A stretch of 44,019 nt of DNA, from IMG/VR virus record IMGVR_UViG_3300005077_000034, positions 1-44,019 of that record; one strand, 5' to 3'. A program made the position numbers and the translations under genes. The notes below the pieces were generated by a model. It did no database searches. It was not told where the DNA came from and worked only from the letters and a program-made list of their open reading frames with translations. Positions 6,147 to 40,817 of this stretch are shown here, piece by piece (position 1 is the stretch's first letter; the number at the start of each line of letters is the position of its first letter). Source of the stretch: a virus (Duplodnaviria; Caudoviricetes).

Positions 6147-7405
6147 TATCGCCTCCATCCCCACAGCGCAACGGACAACCAGGTAGCTGTGTCAAAGTCC
6201 CCGGTGATCGCCAGCCGCCACGACTGACTTCCGAATTCCCTCGTCAGCCCCGAAAGAGTAGTGTCATTCTTGAACTGTTCGCTGGAGTGATCCCAAGCCG
6301 TCAGCACGGTAGCCGGTGCGGCACCGACACTTCCGTAGAGAATGTCCGCCTCTCCGTCCCCGGATGCGTCCGTGCTAGAATAGATGCCCATCAAATAAAA
6401 CGGTGGCGTCCACGGCCATTCAGGTGACGTATTGGTAGTGGCCAGAGCGGACCCAGCGCCGTCAACAAACAAGCCAATAACCATCATCTGTACATTGCTG
6501 GCGATCTCGACCCAGTTGGTGCCGTTGTATGCCAGCACGATGCTGCTCATGCCCTCATAGGAGAGAACTTTGTCAACCTGGCTCGACAGCAAGATGTTAC
6601 CGGCGGCATGATCGATCAGAATATTCTGCGCGCCAGCCTGCAGCACAACCATGTTTCCAGATGCCCCGCCGCTGATCGTCACAAGCGTGTCGTCGGCAGA
6701 CCCCTCTCCCAGGACGGTGTACCATCCATCTGTTCCGACAGTGATGGCACCAGAGGAAATGGTAAGATTGCTGCCGATGGCGGCGTGCAACTGGTCATTT
6801 GCCTCCTCAATGCCATCAAGCCTGTCCGCAACGTCCGAGTAACCTCCCTCCGGACTTGTTCCAAGCGTATCGTCGATGTCATCCAACCTGGCGGCGATGC
6901 TGGCAAATCCACCCTCCGGAGATGTTCCAAGCGTATCCTCGATATCGGAAATATCTCCCTGGGCGGTCGACATGTCGCCCTCGATGTCGGAAATACGACC
7001 TGCGACCGTGCCAGCTCCGCTACCAGTCGAGTTAACGTCCACCCCGAGCGTCTCTTGCAGATTCTCAATGCCTCGAATTAACTGGCTGTACTGCGGTGCG
7101 GACAGCCCGAAGTACAACGCCTCGCCGGCATCGTGCGTGGCTGCCGTAGACCCGTTCTCTCCGCGGGCTACGGTAAGTTCCTTGGTGCTGTCGTTCTTTG
7201 CCGTAACCCACAAGAATTCGCCGGATGCGAACCTGGCCAGGTATGGAAGATTGACGCCAGACGTATCTTCAGATACGGTACAAGTCGTGTCGCTGGCGCC
7301 GATGGCGGACGCCAGCGTAAAACTTTGGCTGTCCTCCGGGAAGCCCATAAAGGTGTTCTCATCATCTAACGTAGTTGGAAAAGAAATGGTCTCAGGAGCA
7401 CTCAT
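6146..7405 (-). CDS. tail fibre-like structural protein with coiled-coil repeats
   Basis: N-terminal LTVARGENGSTAATHDAGE virion-type module; 22-aa repeats DIxDTLGTSPEGG (66-nt period at about 6846-6946). Confidence 0.65.
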   Translation of the reverse strand: MSAPETISFPTTLDDENTFMGFPEDSQSFTLASAIGASDTTCTVSEDTSGVNLPYLARFASGEFLWVTAKNDSTKELTVARGENGSTAATHDAGEALYFGLSAPQYSQLIRGIENLQETLGVDVNSTGSGAGTVAGRISDIEGDMSTAQGDISDIEDTLGTSPEGGFASIAARLDDIDDTLGTSPEGGYSDVADRLDGIEEANDQLHAAIGSNLTISSGAITVGTDGWYTVLGEGSADDTLVTISGGASGNMVVLQAGAQNILIDHAAGNILLSSQVDKVLSYEGMSSIVLAYNGTNWVEIASNVQMMVIGLFVDGAGSALATTNTSPEWPWTPPFYLMGIYSSTDASGDGEADILYGSVGAAPATVLTAWDHSSEQFKNDTTLSGLTREFGSQSWRLAITGDFDTATWLSVALWGWRR

Positions 7406-14152: not shown

Positions 14153-14532
14153 GTGTTCACCTTTATGAGATTCACGGAATAAAAGAAATTGGCGTTTGTC
14201 GAATCCCAAATTGGGATAGTGCTCTTCCTGCTCAACGCGCCGATAACATGAACGCTGCAAGAATTTCCTTCATGATCTACGAAAGTAACAGATGTCGTTT
14301 TGTCGTATGTCGTCAGGAAATTTGCTCTTGTTCCATATCCAGCAGTTATTAAATCTGAATTAGCTGTAACCCTGATAAGACCGGCCCAGCTTTCTTCTGA
14401 GGCGGGGCCGTATGTAACATCCGTCTTTCCGCTTAATGTCATTCGAACAGACGACGGCTTGTTCCTCGATGGCTCCCATTGACCAAACGGGCAACTGTAC
14501 TTATATCCATCCAGTGTAATGTAATTATTCAT
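14149..14532 (-). CDS. distal tail (Dit-like) protein
   Basis: 127 aa directly after the tape measure, with TAATG coupling; call is positional. Confidence 0.55.
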   Translation of the reverse strand: MNNYITLDGYKYSCPFGQWEPSRNKPSSVRMTLSGKTDVTYGPASEESWAGLIRVTANSDLITAGYGTRANFLTTYDKTTSVTFVDHEGNSCSVHVIGALSRKSTIPIWDSTNANFFYSVNLIKVNT

Positions 14533-17500
14533 TACAGCACCTTTAATAGATTGCCGACGTCGCGAACGGCATTGGCGTCCATACGATTAAGCTTATCGAG
14601 CAAATCAATAACGGCCTTGACGACCTCAACTGCATGAGTATTTGATCCAGCCCCTGACAGTCCTGTCAAAATATTGGAAGAGGCGCTGTCAAACCCAATA
14701 GACCCAGGCTGGGCACTTCTTAACCGTATCATTTCATCTATATCGGGAACACCAGTCAATGAATTGAGATTTTTCGCTCTGCTCATTGGAACGATGTCGC
14801 CAGGAACATCGGGAACGAAAATCTCTGGCTCATTCTCTCCAATAAGATAACGCTCGCCAGGCAAAACGTGCCCTCCGATTGCCTTCAATCCACTAAGAAG
14901 TTTACTTCCCGACCCGGTTGAGCCTGTGCCCAAATTCCCCTTTTGAACGATCGGCGGTGCAGTTATTGTCGTCCGCCCTCCGCCGCTAACATTAATATTT
15001 CCAGATCCATTAACGATAGCGTTAATGGCGACATCTACCTCACCAGACATACTCCATTCAATACTTGCAAAAACCTCTTGCAGCTTTTCCCTAAACAGAT
15101 CTGTATCTTCGCCAGCCATAATAGCCGCTGTTTGAATGGCGGCATTCAGAATCTCCATGTCCCGCTGATAGTTCATCATTGTTTCTTGATTGGCAATCTG
15201 AGCAGCCTGGATTCCAAGAGATGCTTTCTGAAGTTCTTCCTGCGCGAGATAAAACTCGCGCTGCATATCGCGCTGCTCATCCTCAAGTTTCCTGCGCTCC
15301 TTGATGAACTTAAGCTCTTCTTCGTGGGCCTCACGAGTAAGTTTCATGCGATCATCAAACTGCTTTTTCTGAAGATCAAATTCTTCATTCTGCCACTCAA
15401 CAGTTTGATCGTGACGCTCCTGCTGCTTTTCAAATGCCTCGTCTTCCCAGCCCCACTTTTCCTCCGTGCGCTGTCTCTCAACATCTATCTGCTCGGATTC
15501 AATGTTATGAGAAATCGTGGCCCTATCTCTATCCCTGATCGCATACCTACGTTCACGCCCCGTGCTAAAACGAATCTGCTCATAGGCGTCTTCCATCGTC
15601 CATCCCCACTGGATCGCCCGGGTATTATCCTGCCTGTCCCAATCTTCTCTTGTCCACTCTCGCCCTCGAGCCATTTGATATGCCTGAATGGCAAAATCCT
15701 GCTGTTTCCACGCAGTCTGAACATCAAATTTCTCTTTGGAAAAGGCCATATTCTCAGCAAATGTTTGCTCTTGAAGATCAAGCTGCTGAGTCGTCATCAT
15801 ATAGTTATAGTTTTGCTGCTCGCGCGTGAGCTTCGTGAAATCCTCCTCTATTTGCCAGAAGCCACGTCCGCCAGGCATTCCCTCGCCAGTTGTATACATG
15901 TGCTTCAGGGCAAATTGAGCCCCCTGTATACCAAGAGACGCCCTCGAAAGCGCAAGACTTTGCTGCTGCTGCTGCCAGCCCAACGCAGCCTGTCCACCAA
16001 TTCCACCGAACATTTCACCGGTCCAGGCAGACAGCATGTCACCAGACAGCCCAAGAGCTTGCCCAATTTGCTGAGCGCCTTGACCAAAAATCCCGCCCTG
16101 ATACTGGAACATTTTTCCAGCCAGCCCAGATCCGCCAGGAACAGTCATGCCGGGATCGTATCCAGATCCAAGCACCCCAAGAGCAGCGTTTCCAGTTCCA
16201 CCAGCCCACAGGAAGAAATTGGACCTTGGGTCATTTTGAAGAATTTGCGTATAGTATCTGTCTTCAGATACACCAGCTTGCGTTGCCCAGGAAAGACCAC
16301 GCTCAACCATATCTGTATTGCCGGCGCCATAACGATATCCGACCTGCCCAACGGCCTGCATTTGCACGGATAATTGATTGGCCTCGGACATGCTTGAGAC
16401 ATTATTAATCATCTCTTCCGCATCGGACTGGGATACATATCCTCTCAAAACATTGTTATATACCGCCGATGTAGCAGCGTTCTCAATACTTGTTTTAAGA
16501 CGCCCGCGCGTCTTACTGAAGCCAATAGGAGACATGCCCATTTCTCTGCGCATATCATCAATGGACTGGGCACCAGACTGAATATAGTATTGAGCCGCAA
16601 ACTCATTTTCTTTTATCTGATCCCACAAATCTGAATCTGGGTTTATGCCGGGGAGATAAACCTCCCCCGTCAGGGTTTCCGATATTTGCCCATAAAGATC
16701 GTAGACGCTCACTCCCGTTGTAGCCAACGACTTGGCTTCATCAATAGCCAGCCCATAGTACGAAGACAATTCACTACGATCGGAACCCATTATATAGGCA
16801 GAAGCATAGGCCTCAAGCGCTATATCGTATGAGTAGCCATACAAAGCTCCGCCTTGCTCCACGGATGTATTGGCTAGATTTTTCAGCACGGCATTTCGCT
16901 CTGCCGCAGACATATTCGCCAGGGTTCCCCTATTAACCCTGCGTGTATACGCTTCACCATACATTCCGGCCCAAATAGATGCATCAATAAGCCTTTGGGC
17001 TGCGCTCCAATGCGTTTCACCGTCTTCAGGGCTTCTCGATCCTGCCGCTGTCCACAAACTGAATTTCTGCCACCAATCTGGAGTGCCGTTCTCAAGCCCC
17101 CAGGTGTTTGGATCATTTTTTATAGACAGGCCTGTTCCAACAGCGCCAGCAAGAGCAACTCCTGCGCCAATGAAAGGTGCGGCAGGGCCTGCACCAAACC
17201 CGGCGGCAACAAGACTGACACCAACGCCAGCACTTAGACTCGGAAGGGCACTGCCGAAGATTCCCCCGCCAGCAGTAATCAAATCAGACAAACCGCCATA
17301 CGCATCGTCAAAACTACGACCCATACCAAGCATAAAATTAGAGCGAGTGTTAGATCGTCTAATTCTTTCTGGAATTACAGCACGATCAATGCCTTCGTAT
17401 GCGGCCAAATGAGAAACCATTGCCTGCTCATTTGCGGCATCCCTATCGGCTGCCTGCGAAAATGGACTGATGAACATCCCGGCCATTCGCGCTGAATATA

Positions 17501-20500
17501 TTAAATCAAAACCGGAAATAAATCTCCTTTGGCCGGTAAGACGGCCCAATAGATTCGATCTAGTTCCATCCGAGTCTTTTCCATCTATTAGATTTTGCCA
17601 CCAGTTTTTTTTCTCTGGCGGTTGTGAGGCGGCAACAATCCCATCACTTATTCTTTTTTCCTTACTTTTCGCCGCTTTAACGGCCAATTCTCTGGTTTCC
17701 AGCTCCTCTTGGTAGGCTTCATCAAATGCATCACCATTGAGCCCTCCAACTTGCTTTTTCCATTGTTTGTAAACTTCCCCCTTCGACACAAATGACGCAA
17801 GCTCTGTTTCTTTTTTGCGAGCTTCGATCGTCGCAAGCATAAGCTTTTCATTCTCTTGCATTAATGGATTCATTTTCTCTAATCGCTGCGCTGCCTCAGA
17901 CACGGCCTTAGAGAAAGCCTCTGTCCCAGCTTGCGCCCCTGTTATGCCAGAGGCCAAGGAAGCACCGCCAGAAGCAAAGCCTTGAGAAATCACTCCAAGC
18001 TTATTCATAAATTCTGGTCTGCCAACAGCGGCGACTGAAGGATCTCCAAATTTAGGAGTATGAGAAAGCCATGATATATTTGTATCGGAAAGAACCCCAG
18101 ATATATGTGTTCTTAAAAATTCAGCGTCACTCCCCTGCGCGCCCTGAAGAGAGCCTAATGACTCCATGAGTGTTTTCTTCTGGGAAAGCAAACCATACGA
18201 TCCTTGATCGCCTATATCTGCAAGGGCAACACCAAGATTGTCGACCGACATAGCCTGACGCGCCGTAAGACCAGCGTTGAGCATATCAAGATTTCTCTGG
18301 CCCAAATCTTCAGAGCCCATCGCTGCGCCCATCGCGCCGCGAAGAATGGCGGTGGACTGCTCCTCGCTATATACAGTGCGGCCAGCGGCCCCTCCGCGAG
18401 CCGATGATCTTCTCGGGGCGAATCCACCAGCGGCGTCCTTTCGCCGCTGAAGTTCCTCCCTGAATGGAAGAAGAACATCTTCTGCTATTCCTGAATGAGC
18501 GCCACTACGCTTCGCCCTTTGAGCAAACTCAGATAAAGAACGATATTCCGATTCTGTTGGAACCATGTCTGGATTCATGGCCAGCATGGACCACTCGTCC
18601 AAATGCCGCTCCTTAACCATTGAGTCTGAGAAATTAAGATTAAAGAACGCAGATCTCATTTCCTCGGTAATTGGATTGCCACTTAATATGTCGCGGAACA
18701 ATCCAGCCGCAGATCCCCAATCAACACTATTTGCGCCCTGCGGTGGAATTGCAGGATTAATAATGCGTCCCATGACCTGACCCGATGTTGTCCCGGAGGG
18801 CATAGATGAAGATGCGACACCGGAAGAAGATGCGCCAACCGGCCTGCTCCCTATGCCAGAGCTTGCTCCACCTGGATTTTTCGAATCGAAGCCAGTCAAT
18901 TCGCTAACGTTTTCAACGAGATCGTACTTTTGTACAAGTTCCTCAACGGCCCTTTTCTTCTCCGAAAATTTTCCGTGTTTTAAGCTCTCGAGAATTTCTG
19001 GATGCCTTCCTTTATTAAGAGCTTCCGCAATCACCGGGGCTATTTCATCAACATTATCCTGCATCGCCCTGGATGCGCTAACAACACTACTTAACTGCTC
19101 ATCAGAAAAAGCATCAATATCAACTTCCCTAAAGGCAACGCCGGATCCCTCAACACCAACGCCTTTAATTAAATTTAAAATCTCTTGATCGGTTGCCTGA
19201 GATGGGTCAGTAAAAGATCCGTGATTTTTTCCGGTTCCGACAAAATATGCGCCATTAACTTTATAGCCCTTATCGCGAAGAGTCTTCGCATAGAGAGCAA
19301 GCTGCAATGGATTGGCATTATCAAGATCGCCGGTTTTCCAGTCTACAATAATGCCTCTTTCTGCGTCATAATAATCAATCTTCATTGACGATCTTGTATC
19401 CCCTTCGCCAATATTATGCTCAAAGGATCTCTCTGCGAAAGATCCTTCACCAAGCCTTTCAGACTTAACAAGATCGTTTACTCTATCCCCCATTGCCCCA
19501 TGCCATAAAGATCCATCTTTCGCCGAGGGAGATTTGCCAGCAATACCCATGTCCTGAAGTTTATTTAATAACCTCATGGATGATCTTGTCCCAGTAGACG
19601 TAACTGCAATTGGTTTAATAGACATATCCCCTTCATACCTATTAGACTTTTTAGCAGTTCCATTCATTTGCTGAATGGCGTCTTCTGCGCCAAGAAATTT
19701 AGTTCCTTCTTCCGCTTCGACAGTCTCTTTTGTGGATGCAACAGCAACCCCAAGTTTTGCATCTGCCGCGGCCTTTTCCTGCTCCTTCAGCTTGGCCTCA
19801 AGTTTGTTATATCCACTCTCGGTAAGAATGTCTTTTGTCGATATTGGATCCCCGGAGACAAGAGACGAAAAACCAGACATATTTAACAATTTATCAATAT
19901 TAGCATCTTGTCTTCCGCTATCCATCAAATGCTGGATATACGACATGCCAAATGTAAACTGCCGGCCATACGGCTTTGCCCCTTGTGCAATTGCAGCAGA
20001 GTTTCCGCCTGCCATAATGGGGGCAAGAACTCTCTGAGCCTTTGCAATGGCCTGGTCATATTCGCCAGTGGCCAGCCCCTGATAGGACGCCATTGCGCTT
20101 TGTATTTTCCAGTCCTCTACCTCTTCACCATTTTCAACGGCCCTAAGTACGCTTTGATAATTATTCAAAGCTTTAAGACCGGCCATGCCAAATGTCATGG
20201 CGCCCCATGGCGTCTCATTAATCAGCCACTTCCTAAACTCACTTGCCTTCTTTCCAGTTATATTGGTCGTTGGATAATCATTCGATGCGATTTCAGCTAT
20301 CATCGACGCAAGCTCGGGCTGCGCCTTTGAAAGAGCATCTATGCTCTCAAACCCAAACATGCCAGCCGTCTCGTCTACGCTTAATTGACCAATGCTTGTC
20401 ATGCCCCTTATACTTGTAGCCAAAAGCTGGTTCATGCCTACTTCATAAGTATCTCTAACAAGCTTGCCATTTCTAACTTGCATTAGCCCAATGTTCTGAA

Positions 20501-23500
20501 GTCTCATCTGGGCGCCGCTTGAACCCTGGAATAACTCAAGCGTGGCCGGAGCGAGCGCGCTTGACGCCGCATAAGATAATGTCTCAAATTTATCTGGCGT
20601 AAATCCGCCACTCAGCTTCCCGTGATGCATAATAGATCTTGTCAAAGACTGTGTGTCCACAAGGCTTTGTTTAATATTGGCGCCTAGTTTATCAAACGCA
20701 GAAATAACGTTATCGGGTCTTTTCTCGCCGGAATTCATTTCATCATAAAATCCGCCAAGCGCTGTCGTCATAATATCTGCGTATCCAATAAACTGCTTTC
20801 CAAGAGCAGCCATAGCCCTCATTTGCTGAATGGATCCCAGGCTTTGCTCGCTTCTCTGATAAACAAGGCTATCGACATATCCTTGCATGTTAGCAAAACC
20901 CTTGGACATGGGGCCGGTTATATCTGGTAAAACCTTCATTCCAACAACTTTATTTCTGGCGGCGTAGCCAAGTAGAGCCATTGGATTTAATTGAGATGCA
21001 TCACTCACGCCAGCGGCCTTCATTGCCTGCTCAACAACTTCTGGGGCGTGGCGCTGGAAATGGCCCAAAACAGCCTGGCCGCGCTCTTCATCCAAAGAGA
21101 TATTTGGCGCAAAATAATTTAGGAATGTAAACAGGCCGGCTGTATCTTTATCGTAGTCAGCAAAATTCGCGCTCGATACAAACGACCCCGTAACACCCAA
21201 ACCAGCGAATTTTTTGGGATCAACATTGTATCCAACGTTCTTGGCCATAGTAGCACTGATTACGCTACCACCCGTATAGTTTGCAAGATTAAGAACATTG
21301 CCAGGCCAGCGCTTAAAAAGACCCTTAAGATCAAGAGCTGACGTTTGGACTCCTTCAGCCTCCATAATATCAACGTTATAGCGTTGTTTGTATTCAGAAG
21401 CCAAACGGTCGTATGTTTCGTCTGGAACGATAAATCTCAAGGGATCATCTTCTTTTGCACCTTCTACAAAAGTGATGACGCCACTCAAGCTGCTTAAGGC
21501 GCTTGATCCGGTCATTGACGATTTAATAACACCCTGCTGCGTAGCATATTTCCCTAATTCTTCATTAAATGCGCCAATGGCAGCGGTATTTCTTTCCCCC
21601 ATGGAATTACTTATTAAACTGAGAGTATTTTCGTATGCGATCCCCAACCTATCTATTGGTTTTCCGAGCGCCCCAAAAGTAGACGCCTTTATCATAGACT
21701 CGGCAGGAGGTAGCACACCAAGAACCTTTCCTTCCCCGTCTTTTATTTCAATAAATTTCCCCTTTGTGTTTTTATCTTCGGCCATTGCCTGAAGCCTATG
21801 ATAAAGAGGCTGCTGCCCGCGCGAGCGGAGCATTGCAAGCACGGCTTCATTACCAGCAAATTCTTTTGCTACAGAACTCTCTCCGCTTGGAAATTCAAAA
21901 GTTTCTCCTGGAGAAACAGTTATTTTTCGGTGCTCAGGTACCATTCCAGATGCAGCCATAACAATATCACTATATGGCGATGCGCCTTCCTGGAGATTTA
22001 AGAATATATCTTTCGCAAGATCGGGATTGTTTCTGCCAAGCTCTATAATATCTTGCATATTAATTCTGGCATCTCTGCCTCTTTGCGGAGATTCACCAAA
22101 TGAATGGACAAGCTTATGCTTGAGCACGTCTTGTTCTGCGACGGCATATACGCGCCCGTCCACTTCCCTTAATTTACCGCCAATAGCGGCGAGGGCCCCG
22201 GCTTCACTTCCGCCCTCCCTATACTGCGGAACAAGATGCGGATCCAGATATGACCAAACCTCTTTTCTAACAAGATCGCCGCCATGCCCCTGAAGAGTTT
22301 TTCTAAACTCTTCTTTCATTGGGCCGAACATATTTTGCAAAGCGGTAGAGAAAATCTCGGCCCCGTTATATCTAATATAGGTTTGATTAAAAATATGTTT
22401 TTGAAATTCTTCCCATCTTCCTTGAGGAACAAACTGCTTCCACTCCTCTGGGTCAATAGTATTAGCTATGGCATCCACAAGATAGGGGAGCCCCTTAACA
22501 GACTCCGCAGTTACGAAAAGATCCGTGTCTCTATCAACGCCCCTTGGAAGCTCTGGAACAAATCCAACAACGCCTTTCAATCCCGCAACGCCAGCAATAG
22601 AATGGCCCGTCATGGGAGAATAATGAACATTGTATGCTAACTCTACGTTGGGCTTATTTCCGCCACTCCCCCACATAAAGTTCACACTTCCGTATGCATC
22701 TCCTGCAATATTTTGCTCAAGGCCTCCGCCCTCGTTAAGAAGGCCGATCCATTTGTGCATGGCCAATATTTCGGTGGCCGTTCTCGGTTTTTTAGTCAAG
22801 ATATTCGGGCTAAAAGCCTGGTCTTTTCCAGTTTTTGGATCTGTGACAGTAACGTGTTCGCCACTTCTAAAAAGATGCTTCTTATTTTCTGGTGTATACG
22901 CATAAAGAAAGTCATAAAACTCTTGTCCACCAAAAGGAAGATTTAACGTAATATTATTGGGAGTATATCCAATAAAACCAGGGCCGGCAGTATGGTTTTC
23001 ATCCGGCCTTAATGAGAGAGCGTCTGCATCCCCTCCAAGAAGACCAAGAAAACCACCCCTTCCATTAATCCTGCCATTTGGCATCTGACCGGAAAACAAC
23101 GGCCTATCCGTAGAAGATCCATAGTTTGCCATATCCAAATATGAAATGCCGATGCTGCGACGCTTGCCCTGCGCCATTTCAAGATTTGAAAAAGATTCGG
23201 ATCTCGCATAAACCATACCGGGCGGAGAGACCACACCAGGAGCAAACTCGGCCCACCTGGTAACGCCTTGATTACGAAGAAAATCATCATCCCTGGCAAA
23301 TATTTGTTGCATACCAAGCAGCGCGTTATAAGTCGTACCCTCGCCATTTGTCGAGGTAAGAAAATGCGTTCTTCCAGGATTCATTTTTGCAGAAAGTTTT
23401 ATTCTGGACTCTGATTTTCCCAAATTATATGCAGAGGTGACAAGGGGATCGTATACATCTCCCGAAAGACCAAATCCAGGTATTGCCTCCAGAGCCCAGT

Positions 23501-24128
23501 TATGAACATAGGATGGGCCAGCATTTGTACGAGAAGAAATCATCGAGGTATCTGAATACGTGCCCGGATACGCATTTTGTTTATACCAAAATGGACTTGA
23601 TTTTCCGTTTTCATCAACGCCCATATACCCCCTGGCCATTTCAAATGCAGCAAACTCAGGAGTAACTGGACCGCCAGTTCCAATAAACGGATCTCTTACA
23701 TAGGGAGAATGCTCAAAGTTTGCTGTGAATGTTCTTCCCATTATCGCCTGAACATTCCAGTCATCGTCTTCGTTAAGGCCGACTACACCAAAGCCGCGCG
23801 AAACTCTTGATATTGCGCCAAGCAGAGCTTCTGAACTGCTTGTTTCCTGTAAGCCATTACCAAAAATAGGGGAAATGCCACTACCGGCAACAGAAAACTT
23901 CCCCAGTCCCATATCGAAAGAAAAATCGAAGCTCTTTGCCTGTCTTTTACCAGATGGATCAAAAATAAATGCTGTAGCTCGACGTGCGCCACCAGGACCA
24001 ATTGGATCGTGAACATAAAAATCAACAAGCTCGTCTAGGCCAAGTTGATCTCTCAAGGAAAATAGATCGGCAAATGCACTTTGTTCGCTTATGAAATTTC
24101 TTGGGCGATTGGAGACTGGACGATCCAT
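14532..24128 (-). CDS. tape measure polyprotein with N-terminal two-barrel RNA polymerase-like region and central PD-(D/E)XK nuclease domain
   Basis: Follows the tail tube and frameshifting chaperone. C-terminal coiled coil and GGHVLPGERYLIGENEPEIFVP tape-measure tail motif. RNAP-like motifs AGVAGLKGVV (K518), KLVH (H675), RWP (R940), ADYDKD (D991-D995). Nuclease motifs IDYYD..IVDWKTG..QLALYA near aa 1585-1612. Confidence 0.8.
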   Translation of the reverse strand: MDRPVSNRPRNFISEQSAFADLFSLRDQLGLDELVDFYVHDPIGPGGARRATAFIFDPSGKRQAKSFDFSFDMGLGKFSVAGSGISPIFGNGLQETSSSEALLGAISRVSRGFGVVGLNEDDDWNVQAIMGRTFTANFEHSPYVRDPFIGTGGPVTPEFAAFEMARGYMGVDENGKSSPFWYKQNAYPGTYSDTSMISSRTNAGPSYVHNWALEAIPGFGLSGDVYDPLVTSAYNLGKSESRIKLSAKMNPGRTHFLTSTNGEGTTYNALLGMQQIFARDDDFLRNQGVTRWAEFAPGVVSPPGMVYARSESFSNLEMAQGKRRSIGISYLDMANYGSSTDRPLFSGQMPNGRINGRGGFLGLLGGDADALSLRPDENHTAGPGFIGYTPNNITLNLPFGGQEFYDFLYAYTPENKKHLFRSGEHVTVTDPKTGKDQAFSPNILTKKPRTATEILAMHKWIGLLNEGGGLEQNIAGDAYGSVNFMWGSGGNKPNVELAYNVHYSPMTGHSIAGVAGLKGVVGFVPELPRGVDRDTDLFVTAESVKGLPYLVDAIANTIDPEEWKQFVPQGRWEEFQKHIFNQTYIRYNGAEIFSTALQNMFGPMKEEFRKTLQGHGGDLVRKEVWSYLDPHLVPQYREGGSEAGALAAIGGKLREVDGRVYAVAEQDVLKHKLVHSFGESPQRGRDARINMQDIIELGRNNPDLAKDIFLNLQEGASPYSDIVMAASGMVPEHRKITVSPGETFEFPSGESSVAKEFAGNEAVLAMLRSRGQQPLYHRLQAMAEDKNTKGKFIEIKDGEGKVLGVLPPAESMIKASTFGALGKPIDRLGIAYENTLSLISNSMGERNTAAIGAFNEELGKYATQQGVIKSSMTGSSALSSLSGVITFVEGAKEDDPLRFIVPDETYDRLASEYKQRYNVDIMEAEGVQTSALDLKGLFKRWPGNVLNLANYTGGSVISATMAKNVGYNVDPKKFAGLGVTGSFVSSANFADYDKDTAGLFTFLNYFAPNISLDEERGQAVLGHFQRHAPEVVEQAMKAAGVSDASQLNPMALLGYAARNKVVGMKVLPDITGPMSKGFANMQGYVDSLVYQRSEQSLGSIQQMRAMAALGKQFIGYADIMTTALGGFYDEMNSGEKRPDNVISAFDKLGANIKQSLVDTQSLTRSIMHHGKLSGGFTPDKFETLSYAASSALAPATLELFQGSSGAQMRLQNIGLMQVRNGKLVRDTYEVGMNQLLATSIRGMTSIGQLSVDETAGMFGFESIDALSKAQPELASMIAEIASNDYPTTNITGKKASEFRKWLINETPWGAMTFGMAGLKALNNYQSVLRAVENGEEVEDWKIQSAMASYQGLATGEYDQAIAKAQRVLAPIMAGGNSAAIAQGAKPYGRQFTFGMSYIQHLMDSGRQDANIDKLLNMSGFSSLVSGDPISTKDILTESGYNKLEAKLKEQEKAAADAKLGVAVASTKETVEAEEGTKFLGAEDAIQQMNGTAKKSNRYEGDMSIKPIAVTSTGTRSSMRLLNKLQDMGIAGKSPSAKDGSLWHGAMGDRVNDLVKSERLGEGSFAERSFEHNIGEGDTRSSMKIDYYDAERGIIVDWKTGDLDNANPLQLALYAKTLRDKGYKVNGAYFVGTGKNHGSFTDPSQATDQEILNLIKGVGVEGSGVAFREVDIDAFSDEQLSSVVSASRAMQDNVDEIAPVIAEALNKGRHPEILESLKHGKFSEKKRAVEELVQKYDLVENVSELTGFDSKNPGGASSGIGSRPVGASSSGVASSSMPSGTTSGQVMGRIINPAIPPQGANSVDWGSAAGLFRDILSGNPITEEMRSAFFNLNFSDSMVKERHLDEWSMLAMNPDMVPTESEYRSLSEFAQRAKRSGAHSGIAEDVLLPFREELQRRKDAAGGFAPRRSSARGGAAGRTVYSEEQSTAILRGAMGAAMGSEDLGQRNLDMLNAGLTARQAMSVDNLGVALADIGDQGSYGLLSQKKTLMESLGSLQGAQGSDAEFLRTHISGVLSDTNISWLSHTPKFGDPSVAAVGRPEFMNKLGVISQGFASGGASLASGITGAQAGTEAFSKAVSEAAQRLEKMNPLMQENEKLMLATIEARKKETELASFVSKGEVYKQWKKQVGGLNGDAFDEAYQEELETRELAVKAAKSKEKRISDGIVAASQPPEKKNWWQNLIDGKDSDGTRSNLLGRLTGQRRFISGFDLIYSARMAGMFISPFSQAADRDAANEQAMVSHLAAYEGIDRAVIPERIRRSNTRSNFMLGMGRSFDDAYGGLSDLITAGGGIFGSALPSLSAGVGVSLVAAGFGAGPAAPFIGAGVALAGAVGTGLSIKNDPNTWGLENGTPDWWQKFSLWTAAGSRSPEDGETHWSAAQRLIDASIWAGMYGEAYTRRVNRGTLANMSAAERNAVLKNLANTSVEQGGALYGYSYDIALEAYASAYIMGSDRSELSSYYGLAIDEAKSLATTGVSVYDLYGQISETLTGEVYLPGINPDSDLWDQIKENEFAAQYYIQSGAQSIDDMRREMGMSPIGFSKTRGRLKTSIENAATSAVYNNVLRGYVSQSDAEEMINNVSSMSEANQLSVQMQAVGQVGYRYGAGNTDMVERGLSWATQAGVSEDRYYTQILQNDPRSNFFLWAGGTGNAALGVLGSGYDPGMTVPGGSGLAGKMFQYQGGIFGQGAQQIGQALGLSGDMLSAWTGEMFGGIGGQAALGWQQQQQSLALSRASLGIQGAQFALKHMYTTGEGMPGGRGFWQIEEDFTKLTREQQNYNYMMTTQQLDLQEQTFAENMAFSKEKFDVQTAWKQQDFAIQAYQMARGREWTREDWDRQDNTRAIQWGWTMEDAYEQIRFSTGRERRYAIRDRDRATISHNIESEQIDVERQRTEEKWGWEDEAFEKQQERHDQTVEWQNEEFDLQKKQFDDRMKLTREAHEEELKFIKERRKLEDEQRDMQREFYLAQEELQKASLGIQAAQIANQETMMNYQRDMEILNAAIQTAAIMAGEDTDLFREKLQEVFASIEWSMSGEVDVAINAIVNGSGNINVSGGGRTTITAPPIVQKGNLGTGSTGSGSKLLSGLKAIGGHVLPGERYLIGENEPEIFVPDVPGDIVPMSRAKNLNSLTGVPDIDEMIRLRSAQPGSIGFDSASSNILTGLSGAGSNTHAVEVVKAVIDLLDKLNRMDANAVRDVGNLLKVL

Positions 24129-35525: not shown

Positions 35526-35662
35526 AAGCGTTGTGATGTGTGTGGAGATGATATGTGAGCGGAGGTGGGGAAGAAAGTGAACCCACCCCCCTCCTCTCCT
35601 GTCGTCCGCACATATCAGGGGCGCTGACGACAGATAGGCCCCGCCCCAGGGCCGGAGCTAAC

Positions 35663-35851
35663 ATGTTGTCCACACTCGAAAGCCTGCGGCTGGAAGGCCG
35701 CACCCCCGAGGTCTATCGGGGGGAGCTCGTCCGGATCGTGTCAGCCCGCACGGGCTGGCAAGAATCCATGGTGAAGACAATGACAACGGGGGCGCTGGAG
35801 GAGATGGTAAAGCGCCTTGAGCCGGCGGCGCACAACCCGCTGGCCCAGTAG
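35663..35851 (+). CDS. hypothetical protein (62 aa)
   Basis: GGAG RBS before ATG at 35663; first rightward ORF. Confidence 0.5.
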   Translation: MLSTLESLRLEGRTPEVYRGELVRIVSARTGWQESMVKTMTTGALEEMVKRLEPAAHNPLAQ

Positions 35852-35852
35852 C

Positions 35853-35903
35853 CCCAGACGTGGTTCCAGGATCACCACGTAAAACACCTGGATGATCCAT
35901 CAG
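35853..35903 (+). ncRNA. putative pseudoknot RNA element, copy 1
   Basis: ACGTGGT/ACCACGT stem; loop TCCAGG is complementary to downstream CCTGGA. Confidence 0.55.
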
Positions 35904-36021
35904 GGATCATGAGCCCTGGGGTTCGTGGTCCCTGACGGGTCAGGAATTCGCCCGATCACGACATATATACGGTATCTTGTGCAGCGCCGCCGCCACCATG
36001 TAGGTGGCCTACTGGCACATT

Positions 36022-36035
36022 CTCCCCCGGGGGAG
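36022..36035. repeat. CTCCCCCGGGGGAG palindrome, intergenic
   Basis: Exact copy inside the longer imperfect inverted repeat GGCACA..TGTGCC. Confidence 0.9.
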
Positions 36036-36123
36036 TGTGCCGGTGGAGCATCTACATATCGGTAGATGACTATATGCCCCAAAAGGGCACACACCCTAGA
36101 TGGGTGGAAAGGACAAGAAAGAG

Positions 36124-36570
36124 ATGTTCGAAAAAACAATGGAATACGTGTTTTACAAGCGGATGATCATCCTCATCCATGGGATGCTTCCATGGGCGAG
36201 GATGATGGCCCCGTACGGCGAGGGGCCTTTGAGCTACGCGAAAAGAACGCTCGATGAAATGAAGAAGAGGGATGGGGCCGCCGCGGCGGTCGCACAGGCG
36301 CTCCTCCTGACGGAGCTCTATGCTCCGGACAGGATGTCCGGGATGGCGAGCAAGATCAACGCCACCGCAGAGGAGGCGGATTCCCGCCATGTGTTTGTGG
36401 TGGTGAAGACGCACGAGTCAATGGGGGTGGCAAAAACACGCGTATTCCAAAAGGGGGAATCCCTCCGCCGATACCTCCGCATGGAGGGGGTGGAAGAGGA
36501 AAGCCTGGAAAAGGAAGTCATTGTCCTTGGAGATTACGTATACGTAATCTCCGAGGAGATCGCGGGGTAA
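36124..36570 (+). CDS. hypothetical protein
   Basis: ORF with coding-like composition; start uncertain (36100 or 36124). Confidence 0.6.
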   Translation: MFEKTMEYVFYKRMIILIHGMLPWARMMAPYGEGPLSYAKRTLDEMKKRDGAAAAVAQALLLTELYAPDRMSGMASKINATAEEADSRHVFVVVKTHESMGVAKTRVFQKGESLRRYLRMEGVEEESLEKEVIVLGDYVYVISEEIAG

Positions 36571-36572
36571 AT

Positions 36573-36621
36573 CCCAGACGTGGTACTGGATAACCACGTT
36601 AAACACCAGTAGTTCCATCAG
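36573..36621 (+). ncRNA. putative pseudoknot RNA element, copy 2
   Basis: Same stem; loop ACTGG pairs with downstream CCAGT, with compensatory changes relative to copy 1. Confidence 0.55.
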
Positions 36622-36646
36622 TGTGCCTATCTACAAATAGACATAC

Positions 36647-36992
36647 TGATGGGCCTTGGCACAGCATGATGGGCCTTTGGCACAGCAATAACGACCCATG
36701 AGATAACTACACCATACTCATGGGCAACGCGGTGCCCGATAAGAGGCAGGCAATGTGGGTGCAGCCACACCCTGCCCGCCCTATCACTATGTCTATACAC
36801 ATAACACATAGGCATAGTAATAGGGTGACATTTATCACCCTTTTTGCTATGACTGTCATATTTTGACAGTCTCTGTTATAGCAAAATAGCCCAGAAAAGA
36901 CTTAGAAAACAGGTCATTTGACCTGTTTTTCTGTTTTACAAGGCTGTTTTGCTTAGTTATGGTCATGATAACTATAAATTATCGAGACCATA
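36647..36992. other. non-coding region dense in inverted repeats plus one tandem repeat
   Basis: Tandem TGATGGGCCTT(T)GGCACAGCA x2 and at least seven inverted repeats. Confidence 0.6.
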
Positions 36993-37312: not shown

Positions 37313-37567
37313 ATGATGAAAATACTCTGGCGCTTCAACTGCCAGATGTTCTATATCCACGTCACAAAGCGGTCGATAGTGATGTGGACAAACACGGGAG
37401 TGTCGAAGAAATTCGGCGCCTCCCTTCGTATAGGGTTCCCAGAACTGTGCGGGAACTACATCTGGGTGGGCGACTATGAAGGAGAGAATGGCCTCTCCTT
37501 TAATTTGAATTGGGGGATTAATTTTGTCTGGAAAGGAGCATGGCTGCGCTACCTTCCAGAATACTAA
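37313..37567 (+). CDS. hypothetical early protein
   Basis: TAAGGAG RBS, 84 aa, aromatic-rich. Confidence 0.65.
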   Translation: MMKILWRFNCQMFYIHVTKRSIVMWTNTGVSKKFGASLRIGFPELCGNYIWVGDYEGENGLSFNLNWGINFVWKGAWLRYLPEY

Positions 37568-37618
37568 TGCGTTCGTTCTGCCCATCACATCTGTGGCGGG
37601 CAGAGCGGCACTCATTAG
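37564..37618. repeat. 55-bp hairpin direct repeat, copy 1
   Basis: Identical to 37971-38025; begins at a stop codon. Confidence 0.9.
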
Positions 37619-37647: not shown

Positions 37648-37974
37648 ATGACTTTCTGGAAAGAACTGAATATTTCAGAAGGCGTCGCTTCGGTGGCGTG
37701 CGACGGGGCCGATATTAAGGCGGTCTACTGTCCTCACCAGGGCCTGTGGGCCGTGTCGACCCGCCACACCGTTGCGGTCTATGAGGACCGCGATCTCGTC
37801 ATCGCGATGTTTTTTAATGCGATGACGAAGCCGGTGTACACATCGCCGGCTTTTGCCCAGATCGTCCACCGGGGGATCAAGAAAGCCCTCCTGGATGAGG
37901 AGCTCCGGGCCAAGAAAGAGGCCAAGAAAGAGTACAGGGCGTTTAACGATGTCCTGTACGATGGCCCCCGCTAA
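37648..37974 (+). CDS. hypothetical early protein flanked by 55-bp repeats
   Basis: GGGAG RBS, 108 aa. Confidence 0.7.
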   Translation: MTFWKELNISEGVASVACDGADIKAVYCPHQGLWAVSTRHTVAVYEDRDLVIAMFFNAMTKPVYTSPAFAQIVHRGIKKALLDEELRAKKEAKKEYRAFNDVLYDGPR

Positions 37975-38025
37975 TGCGTTCGTTCTGCCCATCACATCTG
38001 TGGCGGGCAGAGCGGCACTCATTAG
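37971..38025. repeat. 55-bp hairpin direct repeat, copy 2
   Basis: Identical to 37564-37618. Confidence 0.9.
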
Positions 38026-38260: not shown

Positions 38261-38268
38261 TCTTTAAT

Positions 38269-38358
38269 GGCGGGTAACGGGAGAGTTTGGAGCGCAGAGA
38301 GGGCCGGGAGAGGGCCCTCTTTGCGCGTATGCAGGGGTTCGAGTCCCCTGCCCCGCCT
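38269..38358 (+). ncRNA. tRNA-like RNA lacking a normal anticodon arm
   Basis: GGCGGG/CCCGCC closing stem, D-loop-like AGTTTGG, T-arm GCAGGGG-TTCGAGT-CCCCTGC, central 14-bp hairpin; no CCA. Confidence 0.55.
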
Positions 38359-39956: not shown

Positions 39957-40148
39957 ATGGATATATTATTTGGACTTGCCGCAATATTGTTCATGTTTCT
40001 TCTTGTCGCCGCCATTGGCGATACGAGCCCATCATCTGGTGGAGGCACTGGGGATCCCCGATACGACGCCCTGAAGCGATACCAGAAGCTCGACGGGCTC
40101 GATGGCGAATTCGATGGCGACATCCACTTCAGCGACTGGCTCAAGTAG
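39957..40148 (+). CDS. small membrane-anchored protein
   Basis: AGGAG RBS; N-terminal hydrophobic helix and acidic tail. Confidence 0.6.
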   Translation: MDILFGLAAILFMFLLVAAIGDTSPSSGGGTGDPRYDALKRYQKLDGLDGEFDGDIHFSDWLK

Positions 40149-40164
40149 CCAAAGTAGAAATATC

Positions 40165-40647
40165 ATGGATAAATACGCATTAGAAATTAATGAACACGGA
40201 ACGATGATGGTCAGCAGAAGTGAAGATCCCACAAGCAAGTGGAATTCTGGGACCACACTCAAAGACGGATTCGACAGCTACGCGGAGGCCTGGGACTGGT
40301 GCAGCACTCCGGAGGCTTGGCTTTTGGGCTATTCCCTTGGTTATATTTCCATTCAGAATATGGAATGGTGTATCGACCTGATCACTACCAGGCACGAGGG
40401 GGCTATCGAGTGGCTGCGCCAGCAGGGCGTAATGGCCCCGGTGAAGCAAGATAACGCCACGGCTGAGGATGTAACCGGCAAGATAGTATGCGGTGTTTTG
40501 CCAATGCACTTGGCTGCGCTGACAGAATACTTCATCAGTATTGATATCCCCAACATGCCGGCTGACAAGCGTGCCCTTGAGCTCACGGCTGAAGAAATGT
40601 ATCAGTACGGAGCCTACCTCTCGATTTATAAAGTTACAAAGATGTAA
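40165..40647 (+). CDS. Csx16 (Cas_VVA1548)-like protein with N-terminal extension; putative ring nuclease / anti-CRISPR
   Basis: C-terminal approx. 90 aa: TRHEGAIEWL..G.LPMHLAA..R..ELTAEEM..YGA.L..YKV, matching the Csx16 pattern from memory. Confidence 0.7.
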   Translation: MDKYALEINEHGTMMVSRSEDPTSKWNSGTTLKDGFDSYAEAWDWCSTPEAWLLGYSLGYISIQNMEWCIDLITTRHEGAIEWLRQQGVMAPVKQDNATAEDVTGKIVCGVLPMHLAALTEYFISIDIPNMPADKRALELTAEEMYQYGAYLSIYKVTKM

Positions 40648-40683: not shown

Positions 40684-40817
40684 GTGAACATTGGTACACT
40701 TTCTTCCGTGAACCTTTGTTCATCATGGTGAACAGATGTTCGTGAACTCTTGTTCATATGAACGTCTGTTCATCTTTGTGCGTGAACGTTTGTTCTGTAC
40801 AGTGAACAAGTGTTCAT
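40684..40817. promoter_or_regulatory. array of seven RTGAAC-N4-GTTCAY operator-like palindromes
   Basis: Boxes start at 40684, 40708, 40728, 40742, 40758, 40782 and 40802. Confidence 0.75.

What the first reader, a model, noticed from the sequence alone, without database searches (positions are those of the whole stretch)
35853..36621. Duplicated H-type pseudoknot with compensatory changes after two consecutive genes
Seen: CCCAGACGTGGT-loop-ACCACGT-(A/T)AAACA-partner..TCCATCAG at 35853 and 36573, each starting 2-3 nt after a stop codon. The loop/partner pair changes from CCAGG/CCTGG to ACTGG/CCAGT, two compensatory substitutions, which supports a real RNA structure. The 5' half recalls the pistol ribozyme P1/pseudoknot but P2 is absent. 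Inference: an unclassified ribozyme, nuclease-blocking element or riboswitch-like motif.
Basis: partly seen in the sequence, partly recalled or inferred. Interest (0 to 1): 0.7.

Follow-up and report, generated by a model that had tools for sequence, protein, structure and literature searches.

The report
Phage mini-pseudoknot behind stop codons
Two early genes of this uncultured phage each end in a small knotted RNA fold plus a long hairpin; the knot belongs to a family found in many unrelated phages, is absent from the RNA family catalogue, is neither a pistol ribozyme nor a preQ1 riboswitch, and likely protects the cut end of the upstream message.

Summary
Scans of IMG/VR found homologues in many unrelated phages. 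In 78 of 192 unique pattern matches the unconstrained stem-1 pairs were complementary (permutation mean 17). 17 of 27 full members lie within 30 nt after a same-strand stop codon (controls 18 of 126). One phage carries 10 copies. There is no Rfam match. Pistol is rejected (no P2, no G40-C41-G42). The closest fold is preQ1-I, but its specificity cytosine is an A here, and 0 of 35 members overlap a ribosome-binding site. In one gut-phage lineage a twister cut site lies 3-4 nt behind the knot. My best reading (0.5, inferred, no RNA data) is a ligand-free 3'-end cap for processed phage mRNAs, with the window's hairpin a likely RNase III site. Some homologues sit after promoters or between tRNAs, which argues for a broader boundary role. 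Earlier AI notes of this scan reported what appears to be the same family on other DNA.

The parts
35555..35851 (+). Upstream small ORF 1 (98 aa from GTG; a shorter ATG start with a GGAG upstream is more likely), no known family
   Evidence: no PHROG or Pfam hit
35853..35857 (+). Copy 1 leader CCCAG; shared only by the two window copies
   Evidence: not conserved in homologues
35858..35880 (+). Copy 1 stem P1 (35858-35864/35874-35880) enclosing L1, the S2 5' strand and the inter-helix loop ATCA
   Evidence: P1 covariation in the family
35866..35891 (+). Copy 1 pseudoknot stem S2 (35866-35870/35887-35891; a 6th pair 35865/35892 is possible) and A-rich L3 35880-35886
35893..35942 (+). Copy 1 long hairpin P3 (22 bp, one A-C mismatch); candidate RNase III substrate (inferred)
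36100..36570 (+). Upstream ORF 2 (156 aa), orphan
   Evidence: (only itself found)
36573..36577 (+). Copy 2 leader CCCAG
36578..36599 (+). Copy 2 stem P1 (36578-36584/36593-36599) with the S2 5' strand and inter-helix loop ATAA
36585..36610 (+). Copy 2 pseudoknot stem S2 (36585-36589/36606-36610) and A-rich L3 36599-36605
36611..36656 (+). Copy 2 long hairpin P3 (about 18 bp, with mismatches); candidate RNase III substrate (inferred)
36822..36930 (+). Three terminator-like hairpins with T tails, about 170-270 nt after copy 2: the likely true end of this transcription unit
   Evidence: 7 terminator-like sites in the region vs 1.9 in shuffles

Best explanation
The element is a compact H-type RNA pseudoknot of a family found in many phages, sitting just past stop codons, and it likely acts as a ligand-free cap that protects the 3' end of the upstream mRNA piece after the polycistronic early message is cut just downstream. 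Steps: (1) two stems and an A-rich loop form a pseudoknot: shown by covariation. (2) The fold resembles preQ1-I, with the ligand site predicted to be closed by the RNA's own U-A pair or invariant A: inferred from sequence and a published structural motif. (3) A cut is made right behind the knot, by a twister ribozyme or tRNA 5' processing in homologues (positions shown, cleavage inferred), and in this window probably by RNase III in the long P3 hairpin (inferred). (4) The knot then stalls host 3'-to-5' exoribonucleases and tunes per-gene mRNA levels: inferred, untested.
For: Position: 17 of 27 full members, and 8 of 8 of a subtype with a C-A mismatch in S2, have a same-strand ORF of >=45 codons ending within 30 nt upstream, against 18 of 126 pattern matches with a broken P1 (Fisher p=6e-7, relatedness not corrected). 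Stop-to-P1 distance is 5-48 nt in 29 of 35, with 13 at 5-8 nt. Phage G002 has 10 copies, each after a stop codon. Of 21 stops I listed there, 5 others carry a second pseudoknot type (by eye), 3 a hairpin and 1 a hammerhead-II-like ribozyme (E 0.09), so the post-stop slot is filled interchangeably. In 9 of 15 subtype loci examined (one related gut-phage lineage) a twister-P1 match (five of them scanned: E 4e-11 to 2e-7, below the gathering score) has its U-A cleavage dinucleotide 3-4 nt after the knot. In 3 of 15 a twister-P5 site lies 24-36 nt after it. In L388 a tRNA-Pro begins 3 nt after it. Cutting there leaves the knot on the upstream piece. Only 5 of 35 have a U tract and 0 of 35 overlap an SD-like sequence. 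The window's P3 has no U tail and covaries; it exceeds the 34-nt minimal E. coli RNase III substrate (PMC1540722, passages). An engineered preQ1 pseudoknot is used for 3'-end protection in human cells (bioRxiv 10.1101/2024.08.05.606586, passages).
Against: There are no expression, cleavage or decay data. The twister-linked copies are the mismatch subtype and one lineage, not the window's perfect-S2 subtype. 10 of 27 full members have no ORF end within 30 nt: 4 at 31-48 nt behind another hairpin, 6 with none found, some of them probably chance hits or short flanks. L257/L258 lie after a terminator-like hairpin and about 35 nt before a start codon; L431 lies after a TTGACA-type promoter-like sequence; L388 and L204 lie between tRNA genes (by eye). 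These fit a 5'-leader or general boundary role. Several members are followed directly by an RBS with no visible cut site (L100, L125, L137). RNase III box rules were not tested against P3, and the host is unknown. The pseudoknot-protection precedent is engineered and eukaryotic.
Confidence: 0.5

Rival explanations
1. A general boundary or 5'-leader element: the knot protects or activates the downstream message (blocks 5'-to-3' decay by RNase J, or presents the next ribosome-binding site) or insulates neighbouring genes.
For: L257/L258 and L431 sit after terminator- or promoter-like sequences and before a start codon. The T4-like group lies between regA-region genes and an hsp20-like gene (annotation from translated sequence and recall). 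In G002 an RBS follows most copies within tens of nt.
Against: Where a twister site follows at 3-4 nt, or a tRNA at 3 nt, the cut separates the knot from the downstream RNA. After window copy 2 the next + strand gene is about 400 nt away, behind terminator-like hairpins. Distance to the upstream stop is tight.
Confidence: 0.17
2. A binding site or decoy for a protein: a host or phage RNA-binding factor, or a mimic of type III antitoxin pseudoknots that soaks up ToxN/CptN/TenpN toxins.
For: Many dispersed copies in early regions. The invariant loop bases could be a recognition surface. Type III antitoxins are short H-type pseudoknots (PMC3401426, PMC4627078, passages).
Against: Loop geometry differs: CptI has one L1 base, no inter-helix loop and a 9-nt A-rich loop; ToxI has 3-4 nt then 1-2 nt loops. 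This element has 0-2 nt, then 3-4 nt. There are no tandem repeats. S2 sequence varies freely even within one phage, whereas antitoxin recognition is sequence-selective.
Confidence: 0.1
3. A ribosome-directed signal: the knot meets the terminating ribosome and promotes read-through, pausing or re-initiation.
For: 13 of 29 measured spacers are 5-8 nt, similar to recoding pseudoknots (recalled).
Against: Spacer length is not frame-constrained and ranges up to 48 nt. L100 has two stops in a row. Read-through would add unrelated 28- and 13-residue tails in the two window copies. Copies also occur between tRNAs.
Confidence: 0.08
4. A riboswitch-like aptamer: a preQ1-I variant with changed ligand specificity.
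For: Same architecture (5-bp P1 closed by G-C, U often first in L1, G-C pair next to the inter-helix loop, A-rich L3). The best PreQ1 model hit in the genome is copy 1 (11.5 bits, E 0.36).
Against: The specificity C is an A in both window copies. The inter-helix loop varies (11 forms in 35). 0 of 35 overlap an SD. Downstream genes share no pathway, and 10 copies occur in one phage.
Confidence: 0.06
5. A new small self-cleaving ribozyme.
For: Context typical of self-cleaving ribozymes (small phage genes; PMC6765202, passages). A hammerhead-like RNA fills the same slot in G002.
Against: Pistol's P2 and catalytic residues are absent (no model hit). The conserved core is only about 30 nt and the flanks are not conserved. 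A twister directly behind it would be redundant.
Confidence: 0.05
6. A DNA-level repeat: an attC-like single-stranded recombination site or a homology patch for gene shuffling.
For: It alternates with single small genes, as attC sites do (PMC5737381, passage on DUF1874). The same gene is followed by different modules in related gut phages.
Against: G-U pairs are frequent in S2 (6 of 9 at one position). It is a pseudoknot rather than a hairpin, and it sits next to ribozymes and tRNAs. No integrase was found among the 36 window proteins scanned.
Confidence: 0.04

Closest known systems
preQ1-I riboswitch aptamer (Rfam RF00522)
   Same: Small H-type pseudoknot; 5-bp P1 closed by G-C; U often first in L1 (18 of 35); G-C pair flanking the inter-helix loop; A-rich L3; weak model hit on copy 1. 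The quintuple-base motif described in PMC11625349 section 5 maps onto these positions (inferred).
   Different: A instead of the specificity C before the P1 3' strand; 11.5 bits vs cut-off 39; no SD overlap or terminator platform; 3' of stop codons in phages; not linked to queuosine genes.
Pistol ribozyme (Rfam RF02679)
   Same: P1 whose loop forms a 5-6-bp pseudoknot after an A-rich linker; phage context.
   Different: No P2, no G40-C41-G42, no G-U cleavage junction between P2 and P3; 4-nt inter-helix loop; no model hit.
Intercistronic 3'-stabilising and processing structures of phage early mRNAs (T7 RNase III sites, ribozymes flanking phage genes; T7 details recalled)
   Same: One structured element per gene boundary in an early polycistronic region; long hairpin of RNase III substrate size; ribozymes suggested to process polycistronic transcripts (PMC6765202, passage).
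   Different: The conserved unit is a pseudoknot, not the hairpin; what follows it varies (hairpin, twister, tRNA, RBS).
Type III antitoxin RNAs ToxI and CptI
   Same: Short H-type pseudoknots with A-rich minor-groove loops.
   Different: Different loop lengths; no tandem repeats; no toxin gene seen beside the window copies; freely varying S2.
Engineered evopreQ1 3' cap for pegRNA/retron RNA
   Same: preQ1-type pseudoknot placed at a 3' end exposed by cleavage.
   Different: Synthetic, shown in human cells; a natural phage counterpart is only inferred here.

Membership tests
Pistol ribozyme RF02679 | Match to the covariance model at the gathering score (34.5 bits) | tested here: not met
   no hit on either copy at E<=10; searches also none
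Pistol ribozyme RF02679 | P1 loop forms a ~6-bp pseudoknot | tested here: met
   5-6 bp with covariation
Pistol ribozyme RF02679 | Stem P2 and G-U cleavage junction between P2 and P3 | tested here: not met
   L3 runs directly into S2; definition from PMC6154101 passages
Pistol ribozyme RF02679 | Catalytic purine 32, G40, C41, G42 | tested here: not met
   The bases after S2 differ between copies and are paired in P3
Pistol ribozyme RF02679 | Self-cleavage in vitro | not testable with these tools
   needs bench assay
preQ1-I riboswitch RF00522 | Match to the model at the gathering score (39 bits) | tested here: not met
   11.5 bits on copy 1, none on copy 2
preQ1-I riboswitch RF00522 | H-type fold with G-C-closed P1 and A-rich L3 | tested here: met
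preQ1-I riboswitch RF00522 | Specificity cytosine (UC or AC) just 5' of the P1 3' strand | tested here: not met
   A in both window copies; A in all 35 members was fixed by my search patterns; definition from PMC11625349
preQ1-I riboswitch RF00522 | Expression platform (SD in or beside P2, or terminator) before queuosine genes | tested here: not met
   0 of 35 SD overlap, 5 of 35 U tracts
preQ1-I riboswitch RF00522 | Binds preQ1 | not testable with these tools
   needs probing or ITC
Type III antitoxin (ToxI/CptI) | Tandem 31-62-nt repeats upstream of a terminator and toxin gene | tested here: not met
   Dispersed single copies; flanking ORFs have no Pfam/PHROG hit
Type III antitoxin (ToxI/CptI) | Loop geometry of ToxI or CptI | tested here: not met
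   versus 85, 87
Intrinsic terminator | GC hairpin followed by a U tract | tested here: not met
   Neither copy was called; no T tail after P3
RNase III processing site (P3) | Duplex at least as long as the minimal substrate | tested here: met
   22 bp and about 18 bp; 34-nt minimal substrate in PMC1540722
RNase III processing site (P3) | Proximal and distal box base-pair rules at a defined scissile bond | not tested
   The consensus is in figures I could not see; cut site and host unknown

The most novel reading that the evidence does not exclude
Phages of many hosts share a natural, ligand-free preQ1-like pseudoknot that serves as a ~30-nt exonuclease-proof 3' cap. It is paired modularly with a cutting device (twister ribozyme, RNase P site or RNase III hairpin) to split early polycistronic RNA into individually stabilised messages. 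This would answer what many phage self-cleaving ribozymes are for, and suggest a structural ancestor or sister of the preQ1-I riboswitch.
Probability: 0.35. Interest if true: 0.8.

Novelty: new variant of a known kind. Interest (0 to 1): 0.6.

Why it matters
The biological purpose of most genomic self-cleaving ribozymes near phage genes is open (PMC6765202, passages). A conserved cap sitting 3-4 nt upstream of a twister cut makes one answer directly testable: cleavage creates a protected 3' end. It would also add an uncatalogued, very small RNA family, link it structurally to preQ1-I riboswitches, and offer natural 30-nt RNA stabilisers for engineering. If the function proves to be generic insulation, it remains a real new Rfam-level family of moderate interest.

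Tried and rejected
Rfam scans: no family matches the pseudoknot in the window or in any scanned locus.

Pattern scans that gave little: the strict pattern found 0 in viral contigs. The metagenome scan gave 49 hits, of which I kept 1 (L023); L007 lies in coding sequence, and L005 and L016 were left unexplained. A looser viral pattern gave 24 hits, 1 kept (L065). The prokaryote-genome scan gave 15 hits, 1 convincing (L158), 1 doubtful (L151).

Model search of 5 bacterial genomes: 0 matches. This is uninformative, since only 150 candidates were scored per genome and L158's own copy was missed.

blastn against cultured phages found nothing for the element or the T4-like variant; three hits covered only the twister part and had no clear knot upstream.

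Only one related phage contig was found (L001). It does not reach the early region, and its one descriptor hit is weak and probably coding. ORF 2 and the 426-aa ORF gave no relatives. Sequencing runs: none was listed, so no reads were laid.

Rejected readings: read-through product, CptI/ToxI identity (recalled resemblance failed against the papers), hammerhead or C/D-box readings of the CUGAUG-like word, intrinsic terminator. The three-way alignment of P3 with the 55-nt repeat was meaningless.

Literature: 10 searches found no description of this family. PMC10690425 supplements 1, 2 and 4 and the PMC5737381 supplement could not be searched and may contain it.

Full report
Setting. The window is a 44-kb linear fragment of an uncultured tailed phage (portal and major head protein hits; 52% complete). 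Structural genes run on the minus strand up to about 35400, and small orphan ORFs run on the plus strand after that. The finding lies after the first two plus-strand ORFs, neither of which has a PHROG or Pfam family; the second has no relative other than itself.

Observation. Each has a 7-bp P1, a 5-6-bp pseudoknot stem S2 with two double-sided changes, a 4-nt inter-helix loop and a 7-nt A-rich L3. In register, P3 shows 3 compensatory pairs and one G-C to G-U change, and one A-C mismatch in copy 1 is A-U in copy 2. Whole-element z-scores are -5.8 and -4.8. A descriptor found only these sites in the window and none in 3 shuffles. Folding favours the plus strand for copy 1 but not for copy 2.

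Family. A strict pattern found nothing. Looser scans gave L023 and L065, then L100, L137, L141, L144, L125 and a gut-phage group. Three further viral scans left the two middle P1 pairs and S2 free (278 loci). Among 192 unique matches, 78 had both free P1 pairs complementary, against a permutation mean of 17.0 (maximum 29 in 2000). S2 scored 4 or more in 24 of 78 versus 9 of 114 (Fisher p=6e-5). The best register was chosen per match and relatedness was not corrected.

Covariation. On alignments of members chosen for pairing, so partly circular: P1 had 98% of cells paired, with 2 of 6 pairs changing on both sides (18 sequences). S2 had 82.5% paired with 4 of 5 pairs covarying and 12 extra pair types (16 sequences, including 7 of the mismatch subtype), and 97.8% with 3 of 5 covarying in a T4-like subgroup (9 distinct of 11). 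Covariation scores exceeded all 500 shuffles and all slid registers. The shared CCCAG leader and P3 are not seen in homologues, so they belong to this phage's duplication. The conserved unit is the ~30-nt knot.

Context. I call full members the 27 unique cores with intact P1 and S2 score of 4 or more; four of these (L151, L213, L352, L367) are doubtful but were kept in the counts. 17 of 27 have a same-strand ORF of at least 45 codons ending within 30 nt, as do 8 of 8 of a subtype with a C-A mismatch in S2. The figure is 18 of 126 for matches with broken P1 and 9 of 52 for matches with P1 but weak S2. Distances run 5-48 nt in 29 of 35, with 13 at 5-8 nt. Phage G002 carries 10 copies with P1 and S2 covarying inside one genome. 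Of 21 stop codons that I picked in its small-gene cluster, 10 are followed by this knot, 5 by a second pseudoknot type and 3 by hairpins (by eye), 1 by a hammerhead-II-like RNA (E 0.09) and 2 by nothing obvious.

What follows the knot. It varies: P3 here; twister-P1 or -P5 ribozymes; a tRNA; or an RBS. Twisters cleave at a U-A dinucleotide (PMC5408937, passages). In 9 of 15 subtype loci examined, all one gut-phage lineage, that dinucleotide is 3-4 nt after the knot; in 3 it is 24-36 nt after; in 1 a tRNA starts 3 nt after; 2 have neither.

Against a purely 3' role: L257/L258 follow a terminator-like hairpin and precede a start codon, L431 follows a promoter-like sequence, and L388 and L204 lie between tRNAs (by eye). 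6 of the 17 stop-proximal members also have an opposite-strand ORF end nearby. No RNA data were available.

Comparison with known RNAs. Eight Rfam scans gave no match to the knot. Pistol needs P1-P3, a G-U junction and purine-32/G40/G42 (PMC6154101, passages). These are missing, and the model does not hit either copy. The preQ1-I model's best hit in this genome is copy 1, at 11.5 bits against a cut-off of 39. All class I aptamers use a specificity C just before the P1 3' strand (PMC11625349, passages and section 5). Here that base is A in both copies, opposite a U (U follows P1 in 18 of 35 members). That review says preQ1 replaces a cross-strand pair in the quintuple-base motif; I infer that this RNA supplies the pair itself and needs no ligand. 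The A is invariant in my set only because the patterns fixed it. No member overlaps an SD-like word (0 of 35) and 5 of 35 have a U tract. CptI and ToxI loop geometries differ (PMC4627078, PMC3401426, passages; PMC12283969, abstract only).

Mechanism. Shown: the fold, the family, the position and the neighbours. Inferred: early RNA is cut just 3' of the knot, here probably by RNase III in P3. P3 is long enough by the E. coli minimal substrate (PMC1540722, passages; PMC11780869, passages), but box rules were not tested. True terminator-like hairpins lie 170-270 nt beyond copy 2. The knot would then stall 3'-to-5' exonucleases, as an engineered preQ1 knot is used to do (10.1101/2024.08.05.606586, passages). 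The 5-nt minimum spacer may keep it just outside the terminating ribosome (my inference from recalled footprints). Confidence 0.5; rivals are listed separately.

Novelty. Ten literature searches found no description of the family. In PMC10690425 (passages; 6 supplements searched, files 1, 2 and 4 not) and PMC10085705 (sections 12 and 17, supplement searched; first two places per term seen) I saw no match. The PMC5737381 supplement was unreadable (passages only). The family could therefore sit unnamed among published candidate alignments. Earlier AI notes of this scan describe what appears to be the same family on other DNA, with the same 3'-protection idea. I had the family, the twister link and the preQ1-I likeness before reading them (note), and they are not independent support. 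Verdict: a real, uncatalogued RNA family; a new variant of known kinds (preQ1-I-like fold, intercistronic end-defining structure); function untested; interest 0.6.

Noticed in passing
window 34219, 34915, 35499, 40710-40811 (six in a row), also 1521, 9930, 11508, 13744: 13 GAAC-N4-GTTC palindromes versus 0-2 in 20 shuffles. They resemble the Gram-positive/Chloroflexota LexA box (label recalled), which suggests host SOS control of this phage.
   Followed up: partly
window 3627, 10675, 26257, 35512, 36022, 38381, 40651, 42071, 42643: Nine copies of a 14-bp C5/G5 palindrome, six in the early region near gene boundaries; candidate operator or short RNA hairpin.
   Followed up: partly
window 37564-37618 and 37971-38025: Identical 55-nt hairpin starting at the stop codons of two consecutive genes (z -8.0). 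It is a second post-stop element: RNase III-size, with ends loosely like integron attC cores (recalled).
   Followed up: partly
window 38268-38358: tRNA-like fold by eye (acceptor-like stem, T-arm with TTCGA loop, one long central arm), not called by ARAGORN or Rfam; possible tRNA mimic.
   Followed up: no
window 40102-40647 (+): C-terminal half matches Pfam Cas_VVA1548 (PF09652, E 1e-15) in a phage early region. This family is recalled as Csx16, a predicted ring nuclease, so it may be an anti-type III CRISPR candidate.
   Followed up: no
window 36647-36690: Short tandem duplication of about 20 nt overlapping the 3' arm of copy 2's P3.
   Followed up: no
window 14532-24128 (-): 3198-aa virion-region protein with almost no family hits.
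   Followed up: no
L174 (G002) after stops at 6198, 6595, 11235, 11590, 12540: A second, different covarying post-stop pseudoknot family, five copies in the same phage; no Rfam hit.
   Followed up: partly
L178, L181, L185, L192, L223, L235, L245, L264: T4-like phages carry the knot, preceded by a conserved hairpin, between regA-region genes and an hsp20-like gene (gene names from translated sequence and recall).
   Followed up: partly
L089, L138 versus L091, L112: The same gut-phage gene is followed by a twister-P5 alone in some genomes and by knot plus twister-P1 in others: interchangeable 3' modules.
   Followed up: partly
L204, L255, L265, L335 and kin: A variant with intact P1 and weaker S2 recurs inside phage tRNA arrays.
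   Followed up: partly
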